DNA from: Cyanophora paradoxa CCMP329
Lineage: Eukaryota > Plantae > Glaucophyta
Reading direction: 5' to 3'
Assembly: GCA_004431415.1 (NCBI GenBank)
Contig: QPMI01000005.1
Location: 372,001 to 436,000 of the forward strand
Length of the DNA stretch: 64,000 bases
Part shown: one piece after another, positions 1 through 25,400 of the stretch
Position numbering within the stretch: position 1 is the first letter of the stretch
How the letters are laid out: every line of letters starts with the position of its first letter
Made by a program: the position numbers and the translations under genes
The notes under the pieces: model-generated
What the model was told of the DNA's origin: nothing
Database searches by the model: none
Seen by the model: only the letters and a program-made list of their open reading frames with translations

Positions 1-377
1 CTCGGCTGCAGAAGGCGCGCCCGGCGCGTCCGTGGTACGGACGGAGCAGCCAGGGCCGTCCAGCGGCGCTGGTGCCGTCGCGGGGCGGGCAGCAGCTGTG
101 CTCGGCGCAGGCGCCGGCTGCTCGGCTGCGTCGGCAGCGAGATTTATTTGATCCCCGGAGGGATTGGTTGGGACTACGTTAGCCCCTTGACGCGCAACGC
201 GCGCCGCGCGGGCGCGGCGGCGTGCGGCGCGCTCGGCGCGGCGGGCCGGCCGGGTTCGTTCACGCTCCTCTGGGAGGTCCAACCCGGGTACCGACGTCGC
301 GCTCGAGCTCCGAGTCGGTGTCGGACGACACCGGCTCATCGTGGAGCGCGAGGCCCTCCATCGTGACGATGGGGACC

Positions 378-1058
378 TCATGGCCCTCGTCGTCGTCGTC
401 GCGCATCATGCGGACAAACAGCGGAGGTGCGCTCGGCGCAGGCTCCTGCCGGTGGCTGCAGTCGCATCGGACTGCCGGGCGGCGGGTGCCGCAAAGATAG
501 GCCCCGGGGCAGGGTGCTGGGCGTCGGCGCGCCCTCAGCTGCCATATAAGCCGCGGCCGTTCGATTGGCCCGGCGACGCATCGAGCGGAAGCCTTGGCCC
601 CGTTTAGGGTAAAAGGCTCGCAGCGTGCGGATGAAAGTATCGGCGACTGCGCGCACGGGCGCATCGTCTGGTGGCGGGTCATACCCGAAGTCGCCGGGCG
701 GCAGGTTGTTAGCCTCCGCCACCGCAACAACGGCCCCTGCTGGCAGCAGGACGGGCTCATTGGCGGGATTTAATAGCCGCACATGCAGGCTGCCGCCCGC
801 GGCTGGGCGCCGGTGCAGCTGGTGGGGCGCGAGTACCCCGAGCGCCGACAAGGAGTCGGGCGCCGGCCCGACGGCGAGCGTCGGAGCCTGGTCCGCAGGC
901 GGCGCAGGGCCGTCAATCACGCAGCGGACCATCCACTCGCGCGCGTCCTTCAGGACGACAGGGCGAAGGACCCGGACAAGGAGAGGCCCCTTCGTTTGTC
1001 CGGGCAGCAAAAAGGGATCACGTGGGGGCGGAATTGCGCGTCGCGCGCGTGCAGGCAC
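378..1058 (-). CDS. Post-protease beta-rich spacer (dUTPase-like fold remnant seen in many Gypsy Pol proteins)
   Basis: LHVRLLNPANEPVLLPAGAVVAVAE (~790-715) resembles the V-x-x-x-N-x6-L-x-x-G-x-x-(I/V)A pattern between PR and RT. Confidence 0.5.
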   Translation of the reverse strand: MPARARRAIPPPRDPFLLPGQTKGPLLVRVLRPVVLKDAREWMVRCVIDGPAPPADQAPTLAVGPAPDSLSALGVLAPHQLHRRPAAGGSLHVRLLNPANEPVLLPAGAVVAVAEANNLPPGDFGYDPPPDDAPVRAVADTFIRTLRAFYPKRGQGFRSMRRRANRTAAAYMAAEGAPTPSTLPRGLSLRHPPPGSPMRLQPPAGACAERTSAVCPHDARRRRRGP

Positions 1059-1453
1059 CAGCCAGAGCTGGTCGTGTCTATCCGCCCCTCGACCATCATG
1101 ATCGTGCCGATGCCCACGAGCAGGTCGGCATTGGGGCCCAGGGAGCCGTCGGGGACGACGTACACGGCCCGCGAGACGTACACGTCACCGAAGCGCAGCA
1201 CGACGTGCGCGATTTCGGCCGTGATCGTGGCGTGGTGCAGGAAGGCCCTCAGGACCTTCACGCCCGTGTACCGGGTGCCCGGGGGCATGTGGCGCTTCTC
1301 GCCAACTTCGCCCATAGCGCCGGTGTCAAAGAGGATTTGGACACGCGTGCTAGCGCCGAGAGTGCCGTCGGCATTCAGGGCGTAGACGAATCCTGGGCAC
1401 TGCAGCTGCAGGCGCCGGAAATCGTGCGGGCGGCCCGAGATCCCATCGATCAC
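950..1453 (-). CDS. Retropepsin-type aspartic protease domain
   Basis: VQILFDTGA active-site motif (1336-1316) and downstream DLLVG motif matching the retropepsin D-h-h-h-G element. Confidence 0.8.
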   Translation of the reverse strand: MIDGISGRPHDFRRLQLQCPGFVYALNADGTLGASTRVQILFDTGAMGEVGEKRHMPPGTRYTGVKVLRAFLHHATITAEIAHVVLRFGDVYVSRAVYVVPDGSLGPNADLLVGIGTIMMVEGRIDTTSSGWCLHARDAQFRPHVIPFCCPDKRRGLSLSGSFALSS

Positions 1454-4400
1454 ATGCGCAATCGGGATAGGGGCGTTGAGGCCGCCGGGCGGGGCGCCTT
1501 CGGGGGACTCCGGGACCGCGAGGTCCGACGGACGGTCCGGGCCGTACCCGGTGAGGTCACCAGGGTCGGCGGCGGCGTGGGGAAGTGCAGCGACGAGCGC
1601 TGCCGGCTGTTGCTGGCGTGCAACGCCGCGGACCGACTCTGCGGGGCTGCAGAGGTTTTCCGGTCCGGCCCGTCCGTGAGGGGCTGCGGCTCCCTGGTCG
1701 CAGCCGCCATGACGCTTTCGGCAATAGACCGCGGCTGCAGTGCAGCGCGCGTCGCGAAGTCGTCCTCGCCTTCATCGTCCCCGTAGACACGGAGGACGGC
1801 ACGGGCGCCAGGACGGCAGCGGCCCTCGGCCTGGCGCGCCTGGGCCTGCCCGATCAGCCGGAGCAGCTCGGATTCGATCCGATCGAACTGTTCCAAGCTG
1901 GAACGGCCGCAGCCCAAATCGTCGCTGCGACGTTAAGGGCCGCCCACGAGGCGCCGCTGGGCAGCGTCGTGCCCGGAAGATTGTGACCGGCGGCGGTCGC
2001 AATCTCGTCCAGGACTTCGGACAGAAGCGGCGGGCTTGCTTCGTTGCCAGCCTCGAGCAGGAGGCGCAAGCGAGCGCGCCAGTTTTTGGCGGCTTGGTAG
2101 TGGGCTGCACCGGCGCTGTCGCCGGGCGCCGGCGCGCCGGGGCCAGCAGGGGCGGTCACGCCCGGCATCGGCGGCCCGTACATCATGCCCGGCGGCCAAT
2201 AGTAGCCGCCGCCTCCGGGCATCTGAGGCATCAGGGCCGGTGGCGGCCCGCCCCAGGTGGGCCGCGGCGGCGGCGGGCCCATGGGAATGGCGGGTACGCC
2301 GCGGCGTCAGCCGGCGGGACACCGCTGGGTGCAACGCGAGCCCGCTTGTTGCGGCGCTCGGCTTCGGCTAGGAGGCGGGCGCGCGTCTCCTCCGGCGTGG
2401 GCGCCGGTGCGGGCGCGTCCTCGAGCTCGAGGCCGTGCTCACGCGCGACGGCAGCGAACGCTGCGTCATCGAGGCCGGCGAAGTCGTCGGCGTCGCTCGC
2501 CGCAGGCGCGGTCGAAGCGGTCACCGTGACGCGGTTGCCGTGCATCACGCGCCGGTCCCGGTGAGTGCCTTCACGGGCACGGCCACCGCGCGCACGGTCG
2601 GCGGGGACCGGGAGGAGGACTCGCGCGGCGGGGCCGAGCGAGCCTCGCGGCGCTCGGCTTCCGGGTGCTGCCGCTTCGCGCCTTGCGGCGTGCGGGACGC
2701 ACGGCGCCGTTCAGGCACCGGCGAGCGGGAGGCGCGGGAGCGGGCTCGGCTCGCGCGACCCGGAGCCCGTTGTGCCCGAGGCAGAGGACGCTTCGTCCTT
2801 TGCCTTCTTGGGCGTCGAGTCACCCCGGACCTGGGCCCGCAGGGTCTTCGGGATGACCTCGGGGCGGCGCCCGCTCCAGTGCATGAGGAGGGCAGCCGAC
2901 ATCCGGTAATGGAACGGCGTGACCGCCATTACCGTGGTGCCCAGGTCGGGCGCATCCGCAGGTGCGGGAAGGGCGCATCCGGCTTAGCGACCGTGTCGAA
3001 AGCCGGCGCCGGCCAAAGGTCGGAGACCAAGAGGCGCGGCGGGCGTGCGCTCGTCATGATGGCCAGAGGACATCATTGATCTTCTGAACCCAGCTCAGGA
3101 GAGCCCGCGAGGTGGCTTCCTGGCCGTGGAGCATGTGATCCTCGCCAGCATGCGAGAGATGCCGGGCGGCCCACGTGTCACGGTCGACGTGACAGAACTC
3201 GCGCATGCCGTGCGCGGTGGTACGGGCGGGCAGGATGCGCTCAAGGAGGCGAACATCCAAGCAGCCGACAGTGTCCTCATGCTTTGCGAGCAGTGCGCGA
3301 AGCTGAGTCGTCGCGGGCAAACCCCAGATCTGCAGCATCGCGTCTGCGAGCTGCTTCTTCGACGCCGGCGCATTGTCGAGCCACGATGTGGCGACAGCGG
3401 TCGGGCGGGGAAGGTCTGGCATGGAGAACCAGAACAGGGTCGCCAGCGGAAGCTGGGAGGCCAGAACGAGGGCCGCGTACTCGTCGACAATGTCCGTAGG
3501 GACTTTGTCTTTGACGGTGTGGTAGACAGCGTAAAGCTCGTCACCATCGACCGTGCGCATGTGGCTACCGCGCTTGTCAGCGCTCAGAGTATTGCGGTCA
3601 CCGCGATAGCAGATATCCCGCAAGAACTCATAGGCCGCGGTCGGCCCCACGACGTGCATCTGCACGTTGTACCCTGCCACCGGCGCCGGGCGCCGGGGCT
3701 CAGGCAGCTCGTGGCCGAGGATCCAGCCGGCCAAGTGGTTCACATACCCCGCAAGCAGGGATGCGACGAACTCACGAGTCGGCAGCGGTGCCCACGTGGC
3801 GCCGTTCTCGGTGACGATGGGGCAGACGAGCGGGTGCATCCGCGTCCCCTTGTGCATCGGGTTCACCGGCGGCCGGCTGGACTCGTACCCCAGCGTAAAG
3901 ACGCGGGGCGGCAAGCGGTCGAGCTGGCGACGCGCCTCCGCCTCGGAGGGTACTGCATCGCGACGTGGGCGGGGCCCAGCGTGACGCGGATGGCGTTCTT
4001 CCCGGCGGCGTCGCCGAGGACGTCGAGGGCGTTCGCATCGAGCTCAGCCGCGAAGGCACGCTCGGAGCTTAGGACCGGCTCGCCGGGACGAGCATGCGCA
4101 CGCGCGAGTCGGCTTGCGCGACTACGCGGATGCCGAACTTGCGGCCGAAGCGCGGGTCCTTGAACGCGACCACGCGACTGCGCGGTGGTGCACGGTTCGG
4201 CCCCGCGTGGGGTTGAACTGGTGCGGCCGGTGCAGGTACGCGTAGGACATGCGACACGTGTGGTGCATGACCGTGTTCAGCGTGGCGTACGCCTTCGTGA
4301 TCGGCCCGTCCTCACGGAGCGGGAGAGCGGGCTCCGAGGAGACCCACTTAGTGATGTGCTCATCGAGCCCCATCATCGCGAGCACGTAGGGCAGGCCCTG

Positions 4401-7400
4401 GACGTCCGCACCCTCGAGGGTGGTCGGAGTCGGCGGGACCGGCGGCCCGTAGAGCAAAATCGCGGCAGGGATGCCGCGGTTATGCCCTTCGACGTTTCCA
4501 AGGACCGTCGAGGCGAGGCTGTGCAGAGCAGCATCGGCGTCGAGCGCGTCCGGGTGGAAGCGCGTTTGCAGGTGTGTGCCCGGGTTAAACACGGGGCCGC
4601 AGTCCCGTGGCCCGTTCTCGCCGTACATGAGAGTACGGAGGCGGGGGATTGCGCCCCAGGGCTGCTGCTCGGGCAACGTGTTGGTTGCGGAGCCCGCCCC
4701 GAGCGGGTCCGGGAGCAGCACGCAGTACTTTTCGCAGTACCGCAGGCGCTCGAGCGTGCCGTCGTACCAAGTGCGCGAGCCCGGAGGGCTTGCGGGTCCG
4801 GAGCCGGGGGCTCGGAGGACCGGCGGCAGCGGCGCTCGAGGCGGAGGCGGCGGCTGTGGCCTCGACCATGGGCGTGTCGCCCGCGGCGTCGCGCTCGTTC
4901 GCGCGAACGGCGCCGGCCCAGTCGTCGATCCACCGCACGAACGGCAGAGAGCGGATGACGACTTCCGCGCCCTCGACGGGGAAGTCGATTTCGCCCAGGT
5001 CCAAGAGGCCCCTTCGACGGCGTTGTCGTACAGCCGAACCTCCTGGCTCAGCCAGGAGTCCGCGTCCATCTTTGCGGCGGCCCGCTGAACAACTTCGGAG
5101 ATGTTCAGGTCCGGGGGTACATGGAGGCGAGCTCGCAGACGAGACCCTCGCAACCCGGGTGCAGCGCGCGGACGCGCCCGTAGAAGAAGCGAACTTCTTC
5201 GGGCAGCTGTTGTTCCGAGTACGGAACAAAGGGCACGGTTCCCGGACCAGTGCGTCCGCTGAACCAGCACGACATCAGCCAGCGTGCGTGGGCAGGCACG
5301 GGCTCGACGACATCAAGACCGGGCCCCGTGTTTTGGGACGCGCGCCAGCGGTCATTGACGTAGTATCCCGGCAGGCGGGAGACGTGGAACTCAAAGCGGT
5401 CCAGGAAAACCGCGTCCCAGTGGGAACAGGTCCACCGGTCCGGCTCCGTCGGGAGCTCAGGGCGCGGGTCAAGAGACCCGAGTTCCAGGCTGCAAGTTCG
5501 AACGACGCAACCGCGCGCCGTAGGAACCGCACGTTGGCGGGGTGCCGCTGGGGCACGCTCAGCTCAAGTCGCTCCCACGCCTCGCGCGAGGCGTCTGCGT
5601 GGAAGTGGCTAAACCGGCGCCACGGGGGCTGCGCGGTTTCTGCTGCGAGCCAGCCCTGGAGTTCGGGGTGGGGCTCGGTTTGCAGCAGGAGCGGGTTCTG
5701 GGCCTGCGTGAGGCCACTGTTCGCGAGCCACATGTGCTCGACCGACGTCGACCAGTTGGACGACGGGGCGGGGCAACCGACGAGCTCGAAGAGCTTTGCG
5801 TCGATGCCGCTTCGGACGAAGAGCGCGTGCCACATGCGCTCACGGGCGTCGGCATCAATACCCGCATGCTCATCGGATTCCATGGCGTCTGGAGGCGGCG
5901 TGGCGGCGCCACCCTCGCCCTCATCCGACGAGCCGGAGCCCGGGTCCGAACTGCCGCTGGCGGCGGCGCGGTCGCCGGGCGGGCGAGCAGGGGCACCGCG
6001 GCGGGCGCGCGAGCCGCCTCGTCCACGGCCCTCGGTGGTGCCGGCGGCTGCCGCAGTCGGCTTGCCGCGGCCACGGCGCGTGGTGGCGACTGTTCGGGCC
6101 AACGCATCGCACGAAGCGATGATTTCGTTATGCTTGTCCCACACCGAACTGTTGGTGTGGGGCCCTTATAGCGCCGGCGCACTTCGCCGTAGACCAACCG
6201 CATGCGGTGGGCCGGCTTATCAAGGAGCGTGGTGGCGTAAACGCCGGACTGCGACATGCAGTAGCAGACCCAGACGAACACACACCACGTGAATTCGCCA
6301 TTGCGAGCGGCGGAATCCATTTCTCCTTGCAGCGCTTTCATGAGCCACAGGAACTCGGGGCTCGTGCGGCGCTCGTTCTTCACCAGGTCCGGCGGACCAA
6401 GGCGCGGGACGGCGCGGGAGGCGAGCAGGTCGAGCACGTCGACCTCGCGATGGTTATCGCGGCGGGGCACCGGATAACGGCGATCGAGGAACGCCTCGAT
6501 GCTAGGCCCGCGCATCAGGGGGTCGGCGTCCGGGTGGTGCCGGAACCGGAGCCCCTCGTCGGGACCGACGGGGCGGTCCACAACGACGGTGGGGCAGCGC
6601 GGTACGTGCCAATCCCCAGGAGCCAGTCAGAGAACAGCAGAGAGCTGAACTCGTCGGGGCGCCGCGGGTCAATGAGCCGGGCCATGCGCTGCACGGCGAC
6701 GCGCTCGGGCACGTAGACAACGCGCCACTTGTCCAAATCGGAGCCGTGCTGGACGAGCTCGGAAAGGTTGACGAGCGGGGCTCGCCCCGCACGCAGCGGG
6801 CGCGGCGCTCGGCCTGTGTGGCCAGGACGCGAGCGGCGACGGTGCCCTCGGAGCTCTTGTCGAAGCAAGCAGCGCCGGCGACCTCACGCAGCCTTGCGGC
6901 ATACGTTTGGTACTGAGTGACGGGCGGAGCCACGTCGTGAGGGGTGATCCACTCAAAGAGGCTGTTCTTGCCAAATCCCAGAGCCCCCGGAACGACCGTG
7001 AGGGTGCGGAAACGGATTATGGCCAGCAGCAACTGCACGCAGTATGCGTGGAAGTCGCAGTCCTCGTGGAGGATCTCGCGGGCTGCGGCGAGTGCCGAGC
7101 GCATCGCGTGATAGCCCGTCAGGGCCGGCGAGACCGGGGTATCGGGCGTCTCGTCCCAGTCCCGCGGGTCAAACGCCACGTCATACCCGGTGGCATTCTC
7201 AGCCAGTATGCGGGGCCACTGCAAGCCCGGCTGGGCGAGCAGGTACGCGGACGCGACGAGAAGGGACAAGATCGGCGAGCGATCAGAGTCGCTAAGCCAA
7301 CTCGCCTCAGATGCGAGGTCCCAGCATGCCGACTTCGGGGCGTGCTGCTCCCAAGCGGCGAGCAGATCGTCCCACGCGCGCGGCGACGCGGTGTCGAACT

Positions 7401-8568
7401 CGAAGGCGAGATCGGGCCAGACGACTTCGGAGTCGTCAGGCGGGGGACCGACCCCAGAGCATGAGCCCGGGTCCTCGGGGTGGGCGAACGCCGCGCGCAG
7501 AATTGCACGCATAGCGCGGCCGGAATCCGGGCCCTCATGCAGGCGGTGGTCCGTGCGGGCGACCACGGCCGCAGTCTCGATCACGCAAGCGAGGTTGTTA
7601 ACCTCGGTGCGCTGAGTCAAGCGACCCAGGAGGAGACGGTCCGCGCGGTTCAGTCCGCAGGCGCCCAGGAAGCGATCGGCAACGATGCCGATCGTACCCT
7701 CGCCGGCAAGTTTGCGCACAAGCGGGATTTGCTTATGCCCCTCCATGCCGTTGGTGAAGAGGAGCCCGACGGCCCTCGACAGCGCGCGAGGCTCCGAGGC
7801 CAGCAGCGCGTACCACTTAGAGAGTGGCATGAGCAGGGGGGCAATGCGGCGGACAATGAAGCGGCTGCCCTCGCGTTGCGAGTCAACGAGCACGCTCTCG
7901 GTGTGGTCGCCGGGCATGTACCGCAGCTTGGTGGGCGCGGACATTGGCTTTTTCTCGACGTATTCGAGACCCGAGCCCTTGCCGCAGGGATCCAGGGGGT
8001 CGGACTCCGAGCGGACGCTCAGTCCGTCGGCGTCGGTCTCGCCGATTTCCGAGTCCCCTGAGCCATCGTCGCTTGCCGGGCTGGCAAAGCGCAGGGCGGC
8101 CTCGAACTCGGTCTCACGCGCGGCGTCGTCAAGGGCACCGGCGGCGAGGGTCGAGGCGGCCGCGTCGAAGGCGGCCTGGTCACGCGCCCGGGCGGCGATG
8201 ACGCTGGCGTCGGCCGGCTGGCGCACGGCGGCGACGGGGACGCTGAGGTCCATGTCCGTCTCAGTGCCCACGGGCATCACGAGGACGGACTTGATCGACG
8301 GGTCGCCGCTCGGGGCGCCTGGGCCGGGCTTGCTGCCTGCCGAGGAGGAGCTCGCGGCACGCGCGGCCTCGTGCAGGGCTTGCTGCTGCGACTGAACCAG
8401 CAGATGCTGGAAGAATTCAGCCATGTGGGCAGCGCCCGGGTTCGGCGGCTCGGAGCGCGGCGGATCGCCTCCGGCGCGAACTTGGTTGAACCGGGGCCGG
8501 GGCCCGCGGTTCTGCTCAGGGCCATAGCCGCGGCCACGGCCGCTCTGGGCGTTGCCCTGGGCGGAGGG
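1454..8568 (-). CDS. Uncharacterised polyprotein segment (~2,300-2,400 codons) between knuckle and protease, broken by frameshifts
   Basis: Overlapping protein-like ORF pieces (6502-8583, 6515-6868, 5559-6581, 5275-6144, 5105-5299, 4585-5229, 4122-5270, 3054-3914, 2711-2929, 2231-2548, 1854-2282) can be chained by single-base shifts, mostly at C/G runs. Confidence 0.6.
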
Positions 8569-10175
8569 GCAATCCCGGCGCATGTGGTCCAGCGAGCCGC
8601 AGGTCCAGCAGCCTCGCTGCTCATCCTGCTCGCTCGTCTCCTTACCCTTCCCCAGCGGGCGCTGGTTCGGGCCGGAGGCCGGGCCACGGCCGGAGCCGCC
8701 GGCGTAGCCGCTGCGGGCGCCGCCGCGGAACCCGCCGCGGGCTTGGAAACCGCCCGGGGGTACGGCTCCTGGCGGTGTCCACCGCGGTGGGCGTAACCGC
8801 CGCGGTTCGGGCCGGGGTCCCCGCGCTCGTCGCGGTCGGGGCCCTCGTCCTCGCGGGTCGCGCGCTCGCGGCGCTTCAAGCCCGCCCGCTTCTCAGCGAT
8901 CCCCTTCACCCAGTCGGCGTACGGGATGCCGGGGAACGGGGCCGTGCCCCACGCGCAATTCCACGTAAAGTGGCAGCGGTCGAGGGCCGGCATCTCCACG
9001 TGCATGCACAGGGGGCATGGCGTCGTGGTGGTGCACGGGTACCCCAGGTTTTCCTCGTCCGGGTGCCGGCGGCTCGAGACGGGGGCGCCCGGCGGCGCCT
9101 TGGTGCCAGGGGCGGCGTGCACCGATTTCGTCGGGACGGCCTCGTCAGGCTCGTCCTCGTCATCGGCCGCCACGGCCATTTTGCGCACGCGGGGGCGCTT
9201 GGTCTCAGGCGCCTCGGGCGCGACCATGGCCTGGGGTGGCAGCACGGTACGGCAGCCGTGCGTCTCGCATGCCTGGAGGAATAGATCGTCCAGCTGGAGT
9301 GGCGACAGGGCGCCGTCCAGAGCGAGAATGCGCTGGTCCAGCGCAGTGAGGAACTCGCGCAGCGTGCGCTCGTTCAGCTTCGCGAACCCGGCCATCCGAA
9401 CATCAAGGTTCTGATATTCCGGGTCCTCGCTCGTCGCGCGGGCCTCAAGCGCAGTGCGCAGGCACTCGGCGTAGTACACGGCGAGGCGCTGGCCCGTCGG
9501 CAGCGTGTGCCGGACGAGAGGCAAGAACCAGTCGTGCCACGAGCGCGGATCCTCGCCCGTGTAGGGCTCAGTGAGGGCCCGGCGGGCCGCGTGCGGGCGC
9601 GCCTTGTGGATCCACGCCGTGATCGTATCAAGCAGCCCGGGGGCACGCAAGTACGCATCGCGAGTGGCCACGATTGAGGCCTCATCACGCGCGCAGCTCT
9701 GCTGCAGCGCGAGGATCATGGCGTCGTCGTCGGCAGAACGCAAGTTCGCCGGGACGAGCTCAAGGCGCCGCAGCGTAGCGCGGTCACGCTCCAGGCCAGC
9801 AATAGAGGCCTCATAGAGGTCGCGCTTACGCTCGATTACGGCGCGGAGGGCGCCGGGGCGGATGCGCCCGACGATCACTCCGGCAAGAGCCTCGGACTTA
9901 GTATACTCCTGGCCGCCGGCAGCGTCGGGGCCAAAGAGATACTTCGTCGGCTGCGCCGACTGATAGTTCCGGACGTCCTTGCGGAACCGGTCACCATCGG
10001 CGAGACGGGGCTGGGCGGGCAAGAATCCGATCCGCGCGGGATCATCATCAGCCACAGCCGAGGCGCCGGGGGCGGCGTACTGCACAGCAAGTTCGGCCTT
10101 CGCAGGCTCAACATGCGCGAGCGCAGACAGCTGGCTCCGGACTTCAGAACTAAGGAGTTCCGAGGAGTTTGACAT
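8569..10175 (-). CDS. gag: Gag-like region with helical/coiled segment, expanded Cys/His motif, RGG-rich tract and CCHC zinc knuckle
   Basis: ORF 8277..10175 shifts frame at a C5 run (8756-8760) into a frame reading PPGGFQARGGFRGG...RG-CWTCGSLDHMRRDC (8610-8569), a perfect CX2CX4HX4C. CPLC-x11-H-x4-C at 9017-8955. Confidence 0.75.
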
Positions 10176-15854: not shown

Positions 15855-16296
15855 CGTGACAGCTGCAGGCGTCCACCCTAGCTATACGTCTGCGCGACTA
15901 CTTCTAGATCTGCGCGTGGGAGATCGAGATCTAATGATCAGCTGCAGATTTAGAGCCAGCCCGCGGACGTTGACCGCGGCCGGTACCGCGGACGTTGACA
16001 GGAAGCTTAAGCTTGAGTATATATATATACATATATATACGTAAACGCTTTAAAGCGCCGCGGTCTACCGTAGTACGTCTGCACTAGTACTGCGGGCAGT
16101 CTGCGGCATATGCATGCGCATGCGCACCAGCACTATAGCTAGCTATAGTACTGGGGCCACAGCGCCGGCACGCGTACGGCCGCGGGTATACGTACCGGTG
16201 CCGGGGAGCTGCACTGCGGCGGACTGGACTGTCTGGACACCGTCGGCGGCGAAACTCGACTAGTACGTATACTCCGCGAGAACTTGAGAACTTGCC

Positions 16297-16386
16297 GAGA
16301 AGCTGCTAACCGGCACGTGCACGCGAGAAGCTGCTAACCGGCACGGCGCGCGGCAAGAAGCGGCTAACCGGCACGCGGTGAACCGG
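16297..16386. repeat. Short tandem repeat, core gaagctgctaaccggcacg x3 plus partial
   Basis: Copies at ~16298, ~16326 and ~16356 with short variable linkers. Confidence 0.75.
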
Positions 16387-16432: not shown

Positions 16433-16924
16433 GGGCCCTCCTCAAATAATAGTCGCGCCTAGGGCAACGTACCGAGGACCCCTGAGCCGCCACCGGACGC
16501 ACGGGCTTGCGGATCTTCTCCGTCATCGGAGCGACCTGCGGACGCATGTCATTTAGCAGCCGGGCGGGTACAGCACCCCCGCCGGCCGGCCATAAGAAAA
16601 ATTAATTGAAAAATTCGAGATTTTTGCTTTGGAAAATGCACTCCAAAACATGATGGCTGAGAGGAGGGTACAGCAACAGTGGCGAACCTTGGGCGTCTGC
16701 AGGCTCTACCTCGGAAGCCGGCCTCGTCTGGGGCCTGCACGTGCGTGCCTCCTAGTATGAGCCACGCGTACGCTTGCGCTAGACGCTGTAGCTAGCTATA
16801 GCGATAGCGCTGGCATGGAGCAGGGTAATGGCTTGCAAATTGCTGCCGCACCTAGAGCTCGAGCTCGATACCGCGGCCGGTGCTCCTGCGCTGGCCGCCG
16901 GGCCCGGGGCGCCAGGCCGCCGCA
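16433..16924. repeat. Repeat module A, copy 1
   Basis: By eye matches 18717-19200 except one substitution (ctctacc/ctccacc), one homopolymer difference and a 7-bp insertion. Confidence 0.95.
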
Positions 16925-17481
16925 TGCGCAGTGTCTCAGGGTCTGTCGCCGGCGAGCGAGCAGCTCCAGCGCTAGCTATATATAGCTAGCTAGCCTAGCT
17001 ATAGTAGCCTATAGCTAGTAGTGCCGGCAGCTGCGCATGCAGCGCTAGCTATAGCCTAGTAGCGCTCGCTCTCTAGCTATAGCGCTAGCTAGATCTAGCG
17101 TGCGCTAGCGTTAGCTAGCTGTCTGATCATGAAAGCTTGATGCAGCGCTATATATATACATAGCTAGCTAGCACCGTGGCACTATATATATATTGAAGGA
17201 TCGGAGTAGTGCGCAAGCACCGCTTTATATTCTTTCAATTAAAAACGCAGCAAAAATGTTTATGCATCCGTTCCCGGTTTTTTGTATGGGCCAGTTCGCA
17301 ACATTATTGGGCAGCCGCCATAGTAAAAACCGGAAAATTCCCGGTTTTTTTGGTAACAGGTTCGATTCCGAGTAAGCCAGTTTGACTTAGCGAATTCGAG
17401 CCGTTCTTGAGCTCGATACAGTCATCCTATCCATGGAGTCTACCTCCCACACCACACATCGATCTAGTCGACGTCTCTACG

Positions 17482-18288
17482 TCACCTTCGCACTAACCTG
17501 CGTACCTCTATCGAACTAGCCTGCCAGCTGAGAGTGCCGCGGAGCCTGCGCGCGGGGTGATCCTCAGAAAGGGCTGCTGCTGGGCGCAAGGAATTCGAAA
17601 GAGAGGGAGGCAGAGGCATCCGAGGGCGCAGCAGGGCGCAGGGCGATGAGCTTCGGCTGGCGGCGGTCAGCACGACAAAGAGAAGCGAGGCAGGGGCGTG
17701 GTGCCCCAGCAGCCTCTGCCCCAGGAGGCCCCTGCACGGCCTGAGACGCCGGCGTGCCCTGCCAGGAGGAGGTGGGGGTCCGGGGGGGGGGGGTCCGGGG
17801 GGGAGGGAGAGGGCGGGGGAAGGGGGAGGGGGGGGCGCACGGCGGATCCGAGCACGGCGTAGGGACCAGGGCTGCGGGGGCCAGGGCCTGGACCGGAGAA
17901 GGGGCGGGCGTTGGGAGGCGGAGAGGGAGGCGGGGCGTGGGGGGCCCGTGGGGCGCCCGCGGTGGCGTGGCGTGCGGGCGTGGGATAGTGAGCGCGCGTC
18001 GCGGGGCGGGGGCGTGAGCGTGCCGGCTGCCGTGCCCGGCCGCACCCCGGCGGAGAAGGCGAGCGGCGCCGGCGCCGGGATCGCGATCGGAACGCCGGGT
18101 GGAGGGGTAGGGACGGCGGCGGCGCCCAGGCCGCTGCAGCGGCAGGGGCGGGGTTCGGGGCCGCCGGTGAGGAGGTAGGCGGGGTCGGGGCGGGGCCCGA
18201 GAGAAGCGCAAGGGGTGCACCCGCCGGGGCAAGCGGGGGCGGGGCGCAGGGCGTACCCCTCGTAGCAGGCACATAGGGGTACCTGCAC
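17482..18288 (-). CDS. Cargo Y: Cys- and Pro-rich hypothetical protein fragment
   Basis: VPLCACYEGYALRPAPACPGGCTPC...PCRCSG after a tgcag acceptor-like site; the rest is low complexity. Confidence 0.3.
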   Translation of the reverse strand: MQVPLCACYEGYALRPAPACPGGCTPCASLGPRPDPAYLLTGGPEPRPCRCSGLGAAAVPTPPPGVPIAIPAPAPLAFSAGVRPGTAAGTLTPPPRDARSLSHARTPRHRGRPTGPPRPASLSASQRPPLLRSRPWPPQPWSLRRARIRRAPPPPPSPALSLPPGPPPPGPPPPPGRARRRLRPCRGLLGQRLLGHHAPASLLFVVLTAASRSSSPCALLRPRMPLPPSLSNSLRPAAALSEDHPARRLRGTLSWQASSIEVRRLVRR

Positions 18289-18314
18289 AACGAGGTTTGA
18301 CGGGGTACGTGTTC

Positions 18315-18717
18315 ACGATGAGGACCAACGGCGTGACGGGTGACGTGCTATGCCCAGCCGCGCCTTGGCTTGAGGACAGCCGATTCGGGCGTTATGCGAG
18401 GCTCCTCGCAACCGGGGCCCTTAATTTCCAATAAAAGACTTGATAAAAGAATTTGATCGCCGAATTCTTTAAGGGTTTTTTGTAAGAGCCTTTCTCATGC
18501 TATGCAAGGACCTTAATTCCGCCAGTTAAGCGGTATTGCTAATATCATAAGCGTTCCGAAATGCAAGTAAAAATTAAGCAAGTCGCAGGGCGCGACTACG
18601 TTTTGAGGAGGGCCCAGACGCACTGATTCATAGCAAGCAGGCAGAGATAGCGAACCGTTATCTGCGGCTTTCAGTCAGCGTGTTCTACCTCGAGCGTGCA
18701 GCCGGCCGGCCAGCCTG
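18315..18717. repeat. Repeat module B, copy 1 (403 bp)
   Basis: acgatgaggaccaacgg...ggccagcctg; appears identical to 20778-21180. Confidence 0.95.
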
Positions 18718-19200
18718 GGCCCTCCTCAAATAATAGTCGCGCCTAGGGCAACGTACCGAGGACCCTGAGCCGCCACCGGACGCACGGGCTTGCGGATCTT
18801 CTCCGTCATCGGAGCGACCTGCGGACGCATGTCATTTAGCAGCCGGGCGGGTACAGCACCCCCGCCGGCCGGCCATAAGAAAAATTAATTGAAAAATTCG
18901 AGATTTTTGCTTTGGAAAATGCACTCCAAAACATGATGGCTGAGAGGAGGGTACAGCAACAGTGGCGAACCTTGGGCGTCTGCAGGCTCCACCTCGGAAG
19001 CCGGCCTCGTCTGGGGCCTGCACGTGCGTGCCTCCTAGTATGAGCCACGCGTACGCTTGCGCTAGACGCTGTAGCTAGCTATAGCGATAGCGCTGGCATG
19101 GAGCAGGGTAATGGCTTGCAAATTGCTGCCGCACCTAGAGCTCGAGCTCGATACCGCGGCCGGTGCTCCTGCGCTGGCCGCCGGGCGCCAGGCCGCCGCA
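18717..19200. repeat. Repeat module A, copy 2
   Basis: gggccctcctcaaataatag...ggccgccgca, directly fused to the end of B1. Confidence 0.95.
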
Positions 19201-19219
19201 GGTTTAGTTTCTGCCGTCG

Positions 19220-20691
19220 CCATGAGGGGCGAGGCGGGCGCCTCGGGCGTACGGGGACGTGGCGGGGGGGGGGGGGGGGGGGACGGGGGGGGCGGGGGGG
19301 CGGGGGGGGCGGGGGGGGGGGCGGGGGGCGGCGGCGGGGTACGGGGACGTACCGTCGTCGGAGTTGGCGGGGGTCCACTCGTACCCCCGCTAGAAGCGAG
19401 AAATAGGATCGCGGGGCCCGTCACCCCCACCACCTCAATCCGGCCTGCGAGGCGCGCCCCCCCCCCCCCGCCGTGAGGGGGCGAGGCGGGCGCCTCGGTT
19501 GGGGCGGTGGGGGGGTACGGGGACGTACCATCGCGTCGGAGTCGGCGGGTGCTGCCCCCCGCTAAGAGGCCGCCGGTCCGGGAGGGGGCGGGGGCGGGGG
19601 CGGGGGCGGGGGCGGACGGCGAGGTCGCGCTCGAGGGCGGTGTGGTCGCGGGTGAGGCCGTCGTGCGACCGCGCCGCCTCCCCCAGGGCCCCCTTGGCCG
19701 CCCGCGCCTCCTTCTCGGCCGCCCGCAGCCGCCCCTCCAGCTCCTCCTTCTCCCGCCGAGCCCCATCCAGCTTCGTGATCAGCCCGGCCGCCTGCAGCTC
19801 CACGTCCCGCACCCGCCCCTCCGCCTCCCGCAGCTGCCCCTCCAGGCCCCGGTTGCGCGCCTCAACTTGGCAACGCCCTCCAGCGCTCGAGCGCGGGGCG
19901 CCGCGGGGGCGGGGCTAGCCGGGGATCCAGAGCTGGTGGCTGGCAAAGTAGGCCCGCTCCTCCTCCACTGACGGCACGCACACGCACCCGTCCACGTCCA
20001 CCTGCCCCGCGCTCGCCGCCCGTGCCCGGGGCGGGTGGGGTGGGCAGGGCGGGGACGTACCGTCGTTGGGGTCGGCGGGGGCCCACTCGTACCGTCGTCA
20101 GGGTCGGCGGGGGGCGCCGCGGCTCCCGGCCCCCCAGCCGCTCCCGCACCGCCGCCACCGCCCGCCCCTGCTTCACCACCACCCCGCTCACCCGTGCCTG
20201 GCCAGCGGCGTGCCCGGCTCAGTTCAGAAAGCGTGCGGCGGGCGGCAGGCGGCGGGCAGGCGGGTGGGCGGGCGGACCGGCTCGGCCTCGAGGCGGGCGA
20301 TGGCGGCCTCGGAGACGCGGGCGGCGGCGTCCACGCCCTCCACGCGCCCCGCGAGCGCCTCGAGCCGCGTCCGGTACGCCCCGCAAGATCTGTGGCCGCG
20401 GATCAGCGAGGATCGCGCGGCGGCCGGGCAAGCAGGCCTCGGCGAGGATCGCGCGGCGGCAAGCAGCCGTCCGGGAGGAGCTCGTACCTAGACCTCCGGA
20501 ATCCATCGAGGATCGCGACGCCTGGCGCACTGCGGCACTCGGCTGCAGCTGCAGGCCTGCAGTTGCGCATGCTCGTCGCTCGGCGAATCGCTCGGTGGTT
20601 GCAGTCGCCGAGGCAAGTCGCTCGGCCTGCAGTTGCACTCGCAGAGGAAGTCGCGGAGGCGAATATACTGATACCCCCCGGAGCCCAGCAT
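19220..20691 (-). CDS. Cargo X: probable spliced gene with CxC motifs and coiled coil
   Basis: LCECNC / ACSC, RTRLEALAGRVEGVDAAARVSEAAIARLE, VDVDGCVCVPSVEEERAYF, RDVELQAAGLITKLDGARREKEELEGRLRAAEKE, separated by intron-like GT..CAG segments. Confidence 0.4.
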
Positions 20692-20777
20692 AGTTAGGAA
20701 ATCAACTTTTTAAGCGCCGATAGTGGTGCCGAGATCGGCGCCTAATTCCCGCAAGAAAAAAAGATCTGGCGCGCCTA

Positions 20778-21180
20778 ACGATGAGGACCAACGGCGTGAC
20801 GGGTGACGTGCTATGCCCAGCCGCGCCTTGGCTTGAGGACAGCCGATTCGGGCGTTATGCGAGGCTCCTCGCAACCGGGGCCCTTAATTTCCAATAAAAG
20901 ACTTGATAAAAGAATTTGATCGCCGAATTCTTTAAGGGTTTTTTGTAAGAGCCTTTCTCATGCTATGCAAGGACCTTAATTCCGCCAGTTAAGCGGTATT
21001 GCTAATATCATAAGCGTTCCGAAATGCAAGTAAAAATTAAGCAAGTCGCAGGGCGCGACTACGTTTTGAGGAGGGCCCAGACGCACTGATTCATAGCAAG
21101 CAGGCAGAGATAGCGAACCGTTATCTGCGGCTTTCAGTCAGCGTGTTCTACCTCGAGCGTGCAGCCGGCCGGCCAGCCTG
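20778..21180. repeat. Repeat module B, copy 2 (403 bp)
   Basis: Same sequence and length as B1. Confidence 0.95.
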
Positions 21181-22422
21181 TTGCAAGCTGAGAGCTCGAG
21201 CCTCGACTCCCTCGGAGAGTCCGAGTCCCTCGAGGTTGCTGATCATGAGCCTATTGGTGAGCAGAGAGAGCGCTCCATGCCGAGTCCATGGCCATGGCCA
21301 GCCTAGGCCTCCGGCCCGGCTCCGGGATCCATGGCCAGCGTTAACATGTACACTGTACAGTGCCGGAATTCGAACCGCTGCAACTTTCTGGAGTAGACTA
21401 GAGGCTGTGGCCGGTAATTCACCAAAAAAAAAAGTTTCGAAAAAAAAGAAATTAAACTTGAAGTAAGTTCAGAAACTGAAGCGGCGAATTCGAAACGTTA
21501 ACCGAATTCGAAGCGGCGGTTGAGCACTTGGTGTACCCGTCGATCCACACACATTCATGTGCATGCATGCATATGCTCAAATATTTTAATTATCATAAGA
21601 GTCGCAGTATGAATTGCAATTAAGGTCGGCTGGATGCGCAGCCTGGCAGAGCCTGCAGGCTGCAGCCTGCTCAGCGGTTGGCTGCAGGTGCGCAGCAGAT
21701 CTAGACTGGTACTGCCAGCCTGTGCCAGGAGTCCAGGACTCCGCGGGAGTTCGCCGTTCGCCGTCGACGTCGCCCCGCGGGCCCGCGCGCGGGCCGCCGC
21801 GGCGCGACCGCGCGCGCCAGCCCTAGCCTAGTAGTAGGCCTGGCGCCGGCGGCCAAGCTTTTAAGCCCGAGCTCGCGATCGAGCGGCAGCTCATGATCAT
21901 GATCATGATCACTGAGTCAGCGGCTCGAACTTCGGAATTCGAACACGCGGATTCCCGGATCATCGGCGGCAATATTAATGCGACGATGCGCGCGGCCATG
22001 CACACCCCCGCATGCGCCGCGGTCAGGAACAACTGCAGCGCTAGCTGCAGGCCTCCCTGCCTTCTAGATCTCCGTTCCGACGCCCCTCGCGATCGGGGCA
22101 GCGCAGGCATAACGCCCCTCGCGAGCTTTAAAATTTGAGCTAGGGCTGCATAACGAGCTCGAGGGCGAGTTCGTCCCGGCGCCGGCGGCCTCATGATCAG
22201 GGCCTTCGCCACCGGCGCGAAGCTCTGACCTGCGCATGCGCATGAGCATGCGCCCGGCCCCGCCGACTTGGACGCCTCGCATGTTGGCCGACGCGTAGGC
22301 TGTAGGCCGTGTAAATGTGTTGCTTTAATTTCGCGTTGATCACGAGCCGATTAGCATGTGCATGTACATGTGTGCAAGCTTCCGAAAGTTCGACGCACTG
22401 GTGGGAATTTGGAGCCTTATAA

Positions 22423-25400
22423 TTATTCTTGCTCGCCAACAGCGCGCTCTTGGGAGGGGACCCCCTCCCGGAAGAGGGGCAGGAGGGCGGCGGGGGCGGC
22501 CTCCACGGGCCTGAGCCCGCCGGCGTCCCGCAGCTCGAGGGCCGCGGCGGCCCCGGCCCGCCTTACACACCCCAGAAGCGCATTCACGACGTCATCCCGC
22601 CCCCCCTGCGCGCGCGCCGCCCGTGAGGCGGCTAGCCCTCGCCCTGAGATTGGAATTATTTAAAGGGCCTCACCCTGCAGGCGACGTGGAGGGGCGTCGC
22701 CCCGAGCTTGTCCTGCGCGCAGAGCGCCGCGGCCGCCTGCGGGGCCTCCAGCATGGCGCGGAGGAGGGGCCCCGCCCCCGCGCCGCTCGCCGCGACGTGC
22801 AGCTGCGATTGCAAGCGAGGTTGGGCGGTGGCCGAGGCGATCGCAGAAGCTATAATTAAGCAGAAGCTGGACGGGCTCGAATTCGGAGGCGCACCGGCGT
22901 GCGGCCCCCGGCGTTCGAGGCGAGGAGGTCGGAGGCCGCCACGAAGGCGCGGGCCGCCCCCTCGAGCCCCTCCGGCGCCCCTGCCGGCTCCGGCGCAGAC
23001 TCCGACGTCCACGGCTCCCGCGCGGCGTGCACGTGGAGCGGGATGTCCCCCCCGATGTTCTGCGCCCGGGCCGCCGCGGGGCAGGCCGCCAGCACCTCGC
23101 GGAGGAGGGATAGGCCGGCGGCGCCGCGGAGGTCGGCGCTCAGGTGGAGCGCCCCGTTCCCCTCCGCGTCCTGCGCGTGCACCCCACTCGACTCGGCTCG
23201 GCGGCGGGGCGGGGGGAGGGCGGGCAGACGAGCCTGCGCCGCGGCGTCCGAGTGGGGGAGGAGGCCGCTGGCCGCCTCGAAGCGCCCCTCCAGGCACGCG
23301 AGCATGAAGGGGGTCCGCCCTGCTCAGGGAGGAGTGAGGGGCGAGGATGCGAAAATTTAGGAGAAAGGATCCGGAGTTGGGGACGATCCGCGTCGAGGTA
23401 GGAAAGATGGCACTCAGGAAATTTAATTTAATGATTTAATTAATTTATGATCACGAACAAATGGCGCGGACCTTTAGGGTTGCGAGCGGCGCAGGCGGCG
23501 CGCAGGGCGCCAGCATCGGCAGCGCCGGCCTCCACGACGGCCTCCACGAGCGCCGCCCCGTCCAGCGCCGTCACCGCCTGCATGCAGGGCCATGTGAGGC
23601 GCGCGGATGGGCGGGCGCACGGGCCGGGTGGATCTGTCTGCGCATGCTGAGGGCGGCGCCGGCCGGCCGCACGCATCTAGATCTAGATCTAGGGTGCGCG
23701 CGGCGCGCGGGCGGGTGGGCTGGGTGGATCTAGATCTGTCTGCAGGGGACGGCCGGCCGCACGTAGTGGAGGGCGCTCATGCCGAACTCGTCGACGGCGC
23801 CCGCGTACGCGCCCCGCGCGATCAGCCGCGCCGCCACGTCGGCCCCCCGGGGCCCCTCCGCATCCTTCGCGATCAACGTCGACGTCCGCCCCGCGGCGGG
23901 TTTGGCATTGGCGCTAGCGTTGACGGCCGCAGCCGCGGCGCTCGGCGTGGGGCGGAGGGCGAGGAAGACGGGGGCCGGCCGGCCGGGCGGGGCGCGGCGG
24001 ACGTCGAGTCCGCGCGCCTCGGCCAGCAGCACTTCGGCCGCATCCCAGTCCCCGTCGGCGCACGCGCGCCAGAACGCCGTCCTGCGTTCGCGATCGCATC
24101 GCAGGCAGACGGCGCAGGGCCGCGGCTCCGCACGCACTGCCCGTCCTCGGCGGTTGCGTTCACGTCGAGGTCGGGGCGCCCCAGGAGGATCTGCGTTGTG
24201 GGACTCATTCTGGAGCGCGCGGGACGCGGGGCGGTGCGCGGGCGACCTTTATCGGTGTCGCCAGCTGCAGGACCCGCCTTCGGTCGTCCCCGTAGTTGCG
24301 CTTGAGACGGGCGAGCGCCTGCGGCCTGCACTTGATGGCGAGGAAGAGCGGCGTGCAGCCGGAACGGTCCGCAAGGTTCGGATCCAGGTCGGGGCGCTCT
24401 GAAGTAAGATCTCAAGATCAGTTTCCGTTTTACACGGCAGTTCCCGCGCGCCGCACGCGCGCGCACCGACGAGCTTCTTAAGCCTTTCCGCTGTGCTGTC
24501 GCAGACGCTGTCGCTGAAGAGCCGGTGGAGGACCGCCATGCCTTCGCCGTCGACGGCGTTCACGTCGACGGGGTGCCTGAGCAGGGCGAGGAAGTTGTTG
24601 CTGTGGTACCTGACGGCTGCGTGGTGCAGGGCGGTGCGCCCGGCGTCGTCACGGGCGTCGAGGTCGACGCCGGGCACCGCCAGCAGCGCCGCCACGTGCA
24701 GCACCGCGCCCTGGTGCCGGACGTTGACGGCGTCCATGAGGGCAGTGCGGCCCCCCTCGCCGCGGGCGTTCGGGTCCATGCCGGGGAAGGTGAGGCGGGG
24801 GTCGGCCCCCGGGAGAGAGAGGAGGGAGCGGAGAATGCCGAGGACCGTCTCCAAATCCCGCTCACAATTGCTGGATTCGAAGCCGGCGACCAGCAGGCGG
24901 AGCAAAGCCGCCGCGTCCTCTCCCCAGCTGATCGCGCCGGCATCCAAGAGCGCCCCTACGACCTTCGGCCTGCGAACGGCGATGCACTTCCGATCTCCCT
25001 TCTCCGTGCTCGTCACAAGCCTCGCAAGGCTGCGGCCCTGTGCATCTGCGTCCGCGCGATCACAACCCGTTGCATATGCTTGAGTGAAAGGCAACAATGC
25101 CCGGCCGCGGGCACCGGTCGTGTGGACGAGGCCCGGGTGGGTGGTCAGCAGCGCCCTCACGACCTCGTCACACGGATCTTGGGTGCGCAGCGCGGAGAAG
25201 AGCGCGTTGTCACCGGCCCGGTCCTGCGAGGCCCGCGATCACATATATATGCATCCGGAGGCCAAGATCACAATTGCAAGGAAAGGATCGGGAGAGATTG
25301 AATCCGGATCTTGAACACATTTGGATAGTTGATCATGATGTAAATCTCAATCGAAAACGCGCCTGGAGGAATGGGTCCGATCCGAGGGCGAGGAGGGCCG

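What the first reader, a model, noticed from the sequence alone, without database searches (positions are those of the whole stretch)
16433..21180. A-Y-B|A-X-B: two similar-sized cassettes with identical ends but different cargo, fused head-to-tail
Seen: unit 1 (16433-18717, ~2.29 kb) and unit 2 (18717-21180, ~2.46 kb) share a ~490-bp left module and a 403-bp right module at near identity, have apparently unrelated middles, and join with no spacer. No transposase, RT or recombinase is inside. Known: A...BA...B is the split-direct-repeat topology of PAT/TOC1/Ngaro-type tyrosine-recombinase retrotransposons, where BA is the circle junction. Alternative inferences: (i) a non-autonomous split-repeat element; (ii) two cargo-swapping (Pack-type) or differently deleted DNA elements that target their own end; (iii) integrated segments of a multipartite circular replicon with a ~890-bp common region. 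Model (iii), or a larger cassette family, would be a new system.
Basis: partly seen in the sequence, partly recalled or inferred. Interest (0 to 1): 0.8.

Follow-up and report, generated by a model that had tools for sequence, protein, structure and literature searches.

The report
Joined-end transposon array with asymmetric repeats
In the alga Cyanophora paradoxa, two 2.3-2.5-kb DNA units with the same ends but different gene-like cargo sit head to tail, and their ends carry an off-centre inverted repeat, so they are likely non-autonomous jumping elements that a rolling-circle enzyme made elsewhere in the genome would copy: a likely variant of a known transposon type rather than a multipartite replicon.

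Summary
The A-Y-B|A-X-B structure is real: A copies are 98% identical, B copies 100%. Five of six junctions recur in short-read contigs; B2-to-right-flank was not seen. The host is Cyanophora paradoxa.

A diverged relative (83-92%) keeps its two boxes and also has B joined to A. A spliced minus-strand RNA of that relative crosses the junction through a 95-nt intron.

Contig depths suggest about 4 A, 5 B, 3 Y and 2 X copies, one visible left flank, and A-to-Y about four times A-to-X. A...B is therefore the likely repeat unit and the array is probably longer than assembled. Only two cargos appear and most depth ratios are stable between runs, so a multipartite replicon is unsupported.

Best reading (0.4): a non-autonomous rolling-circle element working like Helitron2/Helentron. 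It fails their size and T-rich-end criteria, and no partner enzyme was found. Recombinase and TIR models remain open. The scan holds no earlier look-alike.

The parts
16433..16924 (+). A1: left module of unit 1; starts with the terminal arm of the inverted repeat
   Evidence: left flank enters A at 16433 in contigs
16433..16459 (+). Terminal inverted-repeat arm at the outer left end; flank ends CCAG where the internal junction has CCTG
16925..18314 (.). Y cargo, 1390 bp, about 3 copies by depth; 17422-17746 covered by RNA?-run contigs; eight 1-bp assembly deletions
   Evidence: tables 4 and 8
18315..18717 (+). B1: right module of unit 1
   Evidence: contig 18345-18742/18746
18589..18617 (+). 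Subterminal inverted-repeat arm in B1: 10-bp box, 3-bp variable spacer, 16-bp box
   Evidence: 0 of 200 shuffles reach 26/29
18618..18714 (+). 97-nt tail between the arms at the junction; holds a splice acceptor (minus strand, 18663-18662), a weak hairpin and a 10-bp palindrome at 18701-18710
18715..18743 (+). B|A junction and A-side arm; pairs with 18589-18617 in single-stranded DNA
   Evidence: -38.5 kcal/mol, z -4.5, 0 of 200 shuffles
18662..18756 (-). 95-nt GT-AG intron containing the B|A junction; spliced in an RNA?-run contig of the diverged relative and in gene models P0002 and P0003
18717..19200 (+). A2: left module of unit 2; minus-strand exons at about 18757-18818 and 18971-19017
19201..20777 (-). 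X cargo, 1577 bp, about 2 copies by depth; spliced minus-strand exons (intron 20277-20198 removed in a contig with 0 differences); coiled-coil exon 19627-19875; gene model P0001
20778..21180 (+). B2: right module of unit 2, identical to B1; ends CCTG before the right flank
21052..21080 (+). Subterminal inverted-repeat arm in B2, 100 nt from the array's right end

Best explanation
The stretch is a head-to-tail array of units that share A and B ends and an off-centre 29-bp inverted repeat but differ in cargo; each unit is likely a non-autonomous rolling-circle (HUH-type) transposon that would work like Helitron2/Helentron. Shown: the repeats, the inverted repeat, five of six junctions in contigs, two cargos, spliced exons, and a diverged relative with the same joined ends. 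Inferred: an enzyme encoded elsewhere binds the two conserved boxes, nicks at the start of A, displaces one strand through the cargo and ends about 100 nt past the second arm, where the paired arms mark the stop. End-to-start joining gives the B|A junction; read-through or insertion at its own end gives tandems. Cargo differs because internal sequence was captured or deleted between unchanged ends. Unequal crossing-over could have added A-Y-B copies later.
For: Asymmetric inverted repeat, one arm at the 5' end and one subterminal, is the qualitative hallmark of Helitron2/Helentron (PMC3627910, PMC4067079, passages). In the diverged relative, 1 of 31 testable box positions is changed against 15 of 84 outside (Fisher p=0.035), and 3 of the 4 changes in the repeat fall in the 6 spacer positions (p=0.010) (from table 3; boxes were defined from the window, not from the relative). 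A third contig keeps both boxes with a longer spacer (table 7, X8) and by depth subtraction runs about 21 nt into the tail, so the tail is likely part of the element. No target-site duplication of 4 bp or more at the array ends; one shared G. Introns are retained in X and A although the RNA is spliced, which favours a DNA intermediate. Tandem arrays and gene-fragment capture are described for Helitrons. Depths point to A...B as the unit.
Against: The repeat is 29 bp and lies 100 nt from the end; Helitron2 has 8-15 bp at 20-30 nt, HINEs 12-15 bp at 38-60 nt. No T-rich ends or TT target. The 5' hairpin is weak (-2.9 kcal/mol) and the 97-100-nt tail folds no better than shuffles (z 0.35, 125 of 200). 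No autonomous partner was found or could be sought genome-wide. Only one left flank is visible, so transposition to new sites is not shown. In the relative, junction depth (117) is about equal to B' (125) and A' (131), so nearly all its copies are joined, with no free ends visible; a simple tandem of two units would give half. CWG sits at the outer edge of every repeat arm and at the array's right end, which suits other enzymes too.
Confidence: 0.4

Rival explanations
1. A TIR DNA transposon (NuwaI/Harbinger-like, CWG target) ends at the two arms; the 100-nt tail is old flank carried along by one-ended or sister-chromatid insertion, giving tandems of element plus tail.
For: Read from 16434 to 18614, unit 1 is flanked by CAG on both sides; unit 2 starts after CTG and the array ends at CTG. 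NuwaI elements make CWG duplications and most PIF/Harbinger TIRs are under 60 bp (PMC4482050 passages).
Against: The B contig never breaks at the inner arm in 3 of 3 DNA runs laid, so no near-identical copy is seen ending there. The tail follows the arm in the relative and probably in a third lineage. NuwaI is reported mainly from animals.
Confidence: 0.15
2. A tyrosine-recombinase DNA element (Crypton-like) excises A...B as a circle; B|A is the circle junction and integration uses a short CCWG core.
For: The empty site and the junction share CC(A/T)G with one overlapping G. Cryptons recombine a short terminal motif with a near-identical target (PMC9977147 passages). Unchecked earlier notes report joined-end and head-to-tail recombinase elements in this genome.
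Against: YR sites are two 11-13-bp arms 6-8 bp apart, and Cryptons have 4-6-bp terminal direct repeats and no TIRs (PMC3212892 passages). Here the arms are 97 nt apart and the ends share one identical base.
Confidence: 0.13
3. A non-autonomous PAT/TOC1-type split-direct-repeat retroelement (A-Y-BA-X-B) whose A-Y-B part later expanded by unequal crossing-over.
For: The topology matches split direct repeats (PMC3266345 passages; the A...BA...B order of PAT/TOC1 is recalled). Gene model P0002 on another contig reads X, then A, then B on the minus strand, so B-A-X occurs twice in the assembly.
Against: A>Y 0.77 vs A>X 0.20 of A, and one visible left flank. Introns are retained. No RT/YR remnant. 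An inverted repeat of this kind is not a PAT feature I recall. Both unique parts are 1.4-1.6 kb, whereas in TOC1 the second is short (recalled).
Confidence: 0.12
4. B-A is a natural contiguous module (the 5' region of a gene or an LTR-like repeat with an old 155-bp inverted-repeat insert), and the array arose by breakage at the cruciform and ordinary duplication, not by a transposase of its own.
For: The relative has B' and A' joined in nearly all copies and its RNA is spliced across the junction with a conserved acceptor. Only one left flank is visible.
Against: The array starts 2-3 bp inside the loop-side end of one arm and stops at the same point. The boxes are conserved while the spliced peptide is not (11 of 42 residues differ). 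Two cargos with identical ends need several independent rearrangements.
Confidence: 0.12
5. Integrated segments of a multipartite circular replicon with an 890-bp common region.
For: B-A behaves as one conserved module with a strong single-strand stem-loop and two cargos.
Against: Only two cargos seen; B/relative-B is 2.62 and 2.58, Y/X 1.46 and 1.46, B/flank 4.8 and 4.4 in different runs (B/relative-junction varies more, 2.76-3.25), as expected of chromosomal copies. No Rep gene. The box motif has 0 hits in viral and metagenome contigs.
Confidence: 0.04
6. The two-unit order and right end are an assembly artefact of a collapsed repeat.
For: Depths exceed the two assembled copies, and B2|right-flank is not among the listed contigs.
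Against: The other junctions recur in independent runs. A short single-copy path between a 5-copy node and a very high-copy repeat at 21388 is the kind of path contig builders drop (recalled, not tested). Collapse would change the unit number, not the anatomy.
Confidence: 0.04

Closest known systems
Helitron2 / Helentron and their non-autonomous HINE/DINE-1 derivatives (PMC3627910, PMC4067079, PMC5148889; passages)
   Same: Asymmetric inverted repeats (5' terminal, 3' subterminal) conserved between diverged relatives; no target duplication; 3' palindrome; tandem joins; gene-like cargo.
   Different: Repeat 29 bp with two boxes, 100 nt from the end; GC-rich ends and CCWG context instead of T-rich ends and TT target; weak hairpins; no RepHel partner shown.
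PAT / TOC1 / kangaroo split-direct-repeat retroelements (PMC3266345 passages; structure partly recalled) and Ngaro (A1-ORFs-B1A2B2, PMC8547959 passages)
   Same: A...BA...B topology in the assembled window; no target duplication.
   Different: No RT/YR; both unique parts long; unequal A>Y and A>X counts; retained introns; inverted repeat around the junction. Ngaro order is not met.
NuwaI / PIF-Harbinger (PHIS) TIR elements (PMC4482050 passages)
   Same: G-starting inverted repeats under 60 bp; CWG at the outer edge of each arm.
   Different: A fixed 100-nt tail beyond the right arm in all copies seen; no copy ending at the arm.
Cryptons (PMC3212892, PMC9977147 passages)
   Same: Junction and empty site share a short near-identical core; joined ends.
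   Different: Arms 97 nt apart, no 4-6-bp terminal direct repeat.
Replitrons (PMC10288648 passages)
   Same: HUH copy-and-paste without a fixed duplication; an AG dinucleotide lies at the left junction.
   Different: No short terminal direct repeats here; the paper found none in glaucophytes.

Membership tests
Helitron2/Helentron | Asymmetric inverted repeats: 5' arm 0-4 nt from the start, 3' arm subterminal | tested here: met
Helitron2/Helentron | Arms 8-15 bp; 3' arm 20-60 nt from the 3' end | tested here: not met
   29 bp, 100 nt
Helitron2/Helentron | 5' terminal T, T-rich ends, TT/TTTT target | tested here: not met
   ends and flanks printed
Helitron2/Helentron | Hairpins at both ends | tested here: inconclusive
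   5' 5-bp stem -2.9 kcal/mol; tail z 0.35; 10-bp palindrome 7 nt from the 3' end
Helitron2/Helentron | No target-site duplication | tested here: inconclusive
   none of 4 bp or more at the ends, but no empty site seen and the right junction is unverified
Helitron2/Helentron | RepHel-encoding autonomous partner with the same ends | not testable with these tools
   no genome held
PAT/TOC1 split-repeat retroelements | A...BA...B repeat topology | tested here: met
PAT/TOC1 split-repeat retroelements | Dispersed copies of one fixed order (equal X, Y, junction and flank counts) | tested here: not met
   A>Y 0.77, A>X 0.20, B|A 0.64, one visible left flank in X1; contig depths, 13 of 25 loose-end rows hidden
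PAT/TOC1 split-repeat retroelements | RT, RNase H and YR in the element or a partner | tested here: inconclusive
   none inside; partner not testable
NuwaI/PIF-Harbinger | Element ends at TIRs with a 3-bp CWG duplication | tested here: inconclusive
   CAG...CAG around unit 1 read arm-to-arm, CTG...CAG around unit 2; no copy seen ending at the arm
Crypton | 4-6-bp terminal direct repeats; arms 6-8 bp apart at the junction | tested here: not met
   one identical base, CCWG core with a mismatch, arms 97 nt apart
Replitron | Short direct terminal repeats | tested here: not met
   ends printed
Multipartite circular replicon | Several cargos, a Rep segment, free circles with variable copy number | tested here: inconclusive
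   two cargos, mostly stable ratios; free circles not testable from contigs

The most novel reading that the evidence does not exclude
A new class of circle-forming eukaryotic element in glaucophytes: a two-box 29-bp inverted repeat around a 97-nt loop is its origin, cut at one edge of the loop; units with that origin exchange cargo; and a spliced transcript is complete only when the two ends are joined, so excision or tandem formation would switch the element's gene on.
Probability: 0.15. Interest if true: 0.72.

Novelty: new variant of a known kind. Interest (0 to 1): 0.38.

Why it matters
Glaucophyte mobile DNA is barely classified (11.5% of this species' genome is unknown repeats, PMC6704402 passages). 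The conserved two-box motif is a precise probe for finding the missing enzyme. If the partner is an HUH protein, the element extends asymmetric-repeat rolling-circle transposons to much longer repeats and GC-rich targets. If the transcript exists only across joined ends, it would be a eukaryotic case of junction-dependent expression. As it stands it is a low-copy, non-coding array with no shown activity.

Tried and rejected
No whole genome was held, so the genome-wide catalogue could not be made. Rfam: 0 hits. Box motif in metagenome and viral contigs: 0 and 0. No RNA holder was listed as such by the look-up of sequencing runs; X15 and X16 are guessed RNA runs, judged so here by GT-AG skips. 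No contig for B2|right-flank or for an empty site among listed rows (15 of 29 joints shown; 12 of 25 loose ends and 16 of 40 pieces shown); a hole proves nothing. A longer parent gene for the X exons: none among 7994 candidates scored (weak evidence), so host-gene capture is not proven; only diverged X-like exons in contigs point that way. The junction peptide has one real relative (P0003) among 4 hits (the other three are repetitive proteins, rejected) and 2 candidates; it is probably non-coding (11 of 42 residues differ). ESM Atlas for P0003: best score 0.80, a lead only. Whether A-Y or A-X is the ancestral join: inconclusive, scores 50 vs 60. Restoring the read-supported single bases in Y gave no recognisable protein by eye; three uncorrected Y frames had no Pfam hit. 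Helitron1 (TC...CTRR at A|T) rejected. Earlier-findings look-ups by sequence, near place and words gave nothing. Literature: one search gave 0 papers; others (2 papers; 8 papers) were seen as listings only and none concerns such an element; Repbase and paper supplements were not seen and may already hold this family.
Full report
Observation. A1 (16433-16924) and A2 (18717-19200) are 98.0% identical, B1 (18315-18717) and B2 (20778-21180) are identical over 403 bp, Y and X do not match each other, and the units share one G. Nothing inside encodes a known mobility protein in the 7 array frames and 3 gene models scanned against Pfam; the X exon gives only sub-threshold coiled-coil hits.

Host. The X exon 19627-19875 is 100% identical to a Cyanophora paradoxa gene model, P0001, and 85% to a second, P0002, on another contig. 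The species is reported as more likely haploid (PMC6704402, passages). I laid 5 of the 24: X1, X11, X8 (DNA) and X15, X16 (guessed RNA). The tool warns that contig depth is no true copy number, and its tables are cut (32 pieces shown, 2159 hidden; 16 of 40 pieces, 12 of 25 loose ends).

Junctions. Contigs cross left-flank|A, A|Y, Y|B, X|B and B|A with no other letters at the joints; most overlap by 25-30 letters, below the tool's 31-letter rule. A|X is inferred from depth subtraction (56.6 in X1). B2|right-flank is not among the listed rows. It may have been dropped as a short single-copy path into the very high-copy repeat at 21388 (recalled assembler behaviour, untested), or the right end may be misassembled.

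A 29-bp inverted repeat pairs 18589-18617 with 18715-18743 at 26 of 29 positions: a 10-bp box, a 3-bp mismatched spacer and a 16-bp box. None of 200 shuffles exceeded 19; the 14-bp core occurs exactly four times in the window. One arm therefore starts each unit and the other lies 100 nt inside its right end. At the junction they close a stem around a 97-nt loop (-38.5 kcal/mol, z -4.5), and the array's left end falls 2-3 bp inside the loop-side end of that stem. The loop itself folds no better than chance. The left flank ends CCAG where the junction has CCTG; there is no duplication of 4 bp or more at the array ends.

A diverged relative. Both DNA runs hold contigs 83-92% identical to B, to B|A and to A at depths 125, 117 and 131 in X1 (about two copies). 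Its listed changes avoid the boxes (1 of 31 positions vs 15 of 84 outside, p=0.035) and fall in the spacers (3 of 6, p=0.010) (positions within 31 nt of contig ends are not listed by the tool and were left out). A third contig keeps both boxes with a longer spacer and by subtraction reaches 18638. The boxes thus look like binding sites and the tail looks like part of the element. Against a simple tandem, the relative's junction is as deep as its B' and A', so free ends are not visible.

Transcription. In X15 a contig with no other letters skips 20197-20276, a GT-AG intron on the minus strand of X. In X16 a 1045-nt contig of the relative skips a 152-nt GT-AG intron in A. Its loose end matches the B tail best in the window (20 of 30), and its last five letters carry the relative's two DNA variants at 18759 and 18761. 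It is therefore spliced across B|A through a 95-nt intron (18756-18662) that contains the junction and one arm. Gene models P0002 and P0003 use the same splice. The peptide is probably not selected (11 of 42 residues differ), so these are likely untranslated exons. Contigs cannot show strand; it is inferred from GT-AG.

Copy structure. In X1, with single-copy flanks at 52-68: A 282-291, B 326, B|A 210, A>Y 218, A>X 57, left flank 68, Y 133-155, X 91-153. This fits about 4 A, 5 B, 3 Y and 2 X. With one visible left flank and three or four A>Y joins, B-A-Y must occur, so A...B repeats as a unit and the array is probably longer than assembled, for example three A-Y-B and one A-X-B. P0002 shows B-A-X on another contig and differs from the window's X by seven residues and a frameshift, so it may be a separate copy; that sits uneasily with A>X at one copy. 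Ratios are stable between runs (B/relative-B 2.62 and 2.58; Y/X 1.46 twice), except B/relative-junction (2.76-3.25).

Mechanism. I favour a non-autonomous rolling-circle element (0.4). Asymmetric inverted repeats, conserved between diverged families, with no duplication, tandem joins and captured fragments are described for Helitron2/Helentron (PMC3627910, PMC5148889, PMC4067079; passages). Inferred steps: binding at the boxes, nicking at the start of A, strand displacement, termination 100 nt past the second arm, end-to-start joining. It is not filed as a member: arm length, distance and T-rich ends are not met and no partner is known. Rivals: a CWG-targeting TIR element with a carried flank (0.15; PMC4482050 passages); a Crypton-like circle (0.13; PMC3212892, PMC9977147 passages); a PAT/TOC1-type element with later expansion (0.12; PMC3266345, PMC8547959 passages, structure partly recalled); a natural B-A module rearranged without a transposase (0.12); multipartite replicon (0.04); misassembly (0.04). 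Replitrons were considered (PMC10288648 passages) and fail on terminal direct repeats.

Novelty. No earlier finding of this scan matches the sequence. Searches (listings only) show no paper on such an element in Cyanophora; supplements and Repbase were not seen. Unchecked earlier notes report recombinase elements with joined ends and HUH-encoding virus-like elements in this genome, so either enzyme class may be available in trans.

Verdict. A real, low-copy array of likely non-autonomous elements with an unusual long asymmetric inverted repeat and a junction-crossing spliced RNA. New variant of a known kind; interest 0.38. The multipartite-replicon reading is unsupported.

Noticed in passing
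window 275-10151 (-): Chain of long minus-strand frames with a Gag-like start (CxxC..H..C, recalled motif) and a DTG protease-like motif about 8 kb downstream; no Pfam hit in 7 frames. Resembles the giant-Gag retrotransposon noted elsewhere in this genome (e1-10595350).
   Followed up: partly
window 21388-21433: A ~45-bp sequence with very high summed contig depth (bin means 32,559 and 54,691) and many different flanks: a very abundant short repeat.
   Followed up: no
window 17623-18186: Eight single-base insertions relative to the window in contigs of both DNA runs, several at full depth: likely assembly errors in G/C runs (table 4).
   Followed up: partly
window ~17270-17360: Part of Y with two T-rich direct motifs has further copies elsewhere (variants at 17303 at several-copy depth): possibly a small repeat nested in Y.
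   Followed up: no
window 19318-19385, 19477-19549, 20028-20093: Three related short exon/splice-donor units inside X, 81-84% alike.
   Followed up: partly
window 19885-19994 and 19628-19863: Diverged X-like exons (10 of 110 and 11 of 236 differences) in guessed-RNA contigs, one also at single-copy depth in DNA: a possible parent gene or the relative's cargo.
   Followed up: partly
window 18713-18742: An unlisted contig of depth 38 (X1) / 57 (X8) appears to share 30 nt around the junction and then diverge (by subtraction): a further copy of the arm or a truncated unit.
   Followed up: no
window 22656-25238 (-): Ankyrin-repeat gene region right of the array (for 24444-25238).
   Followed up: no
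window 16296-16377: Three copies of a ~28-bp unit in the left flank just before A1.
   Followed up: no
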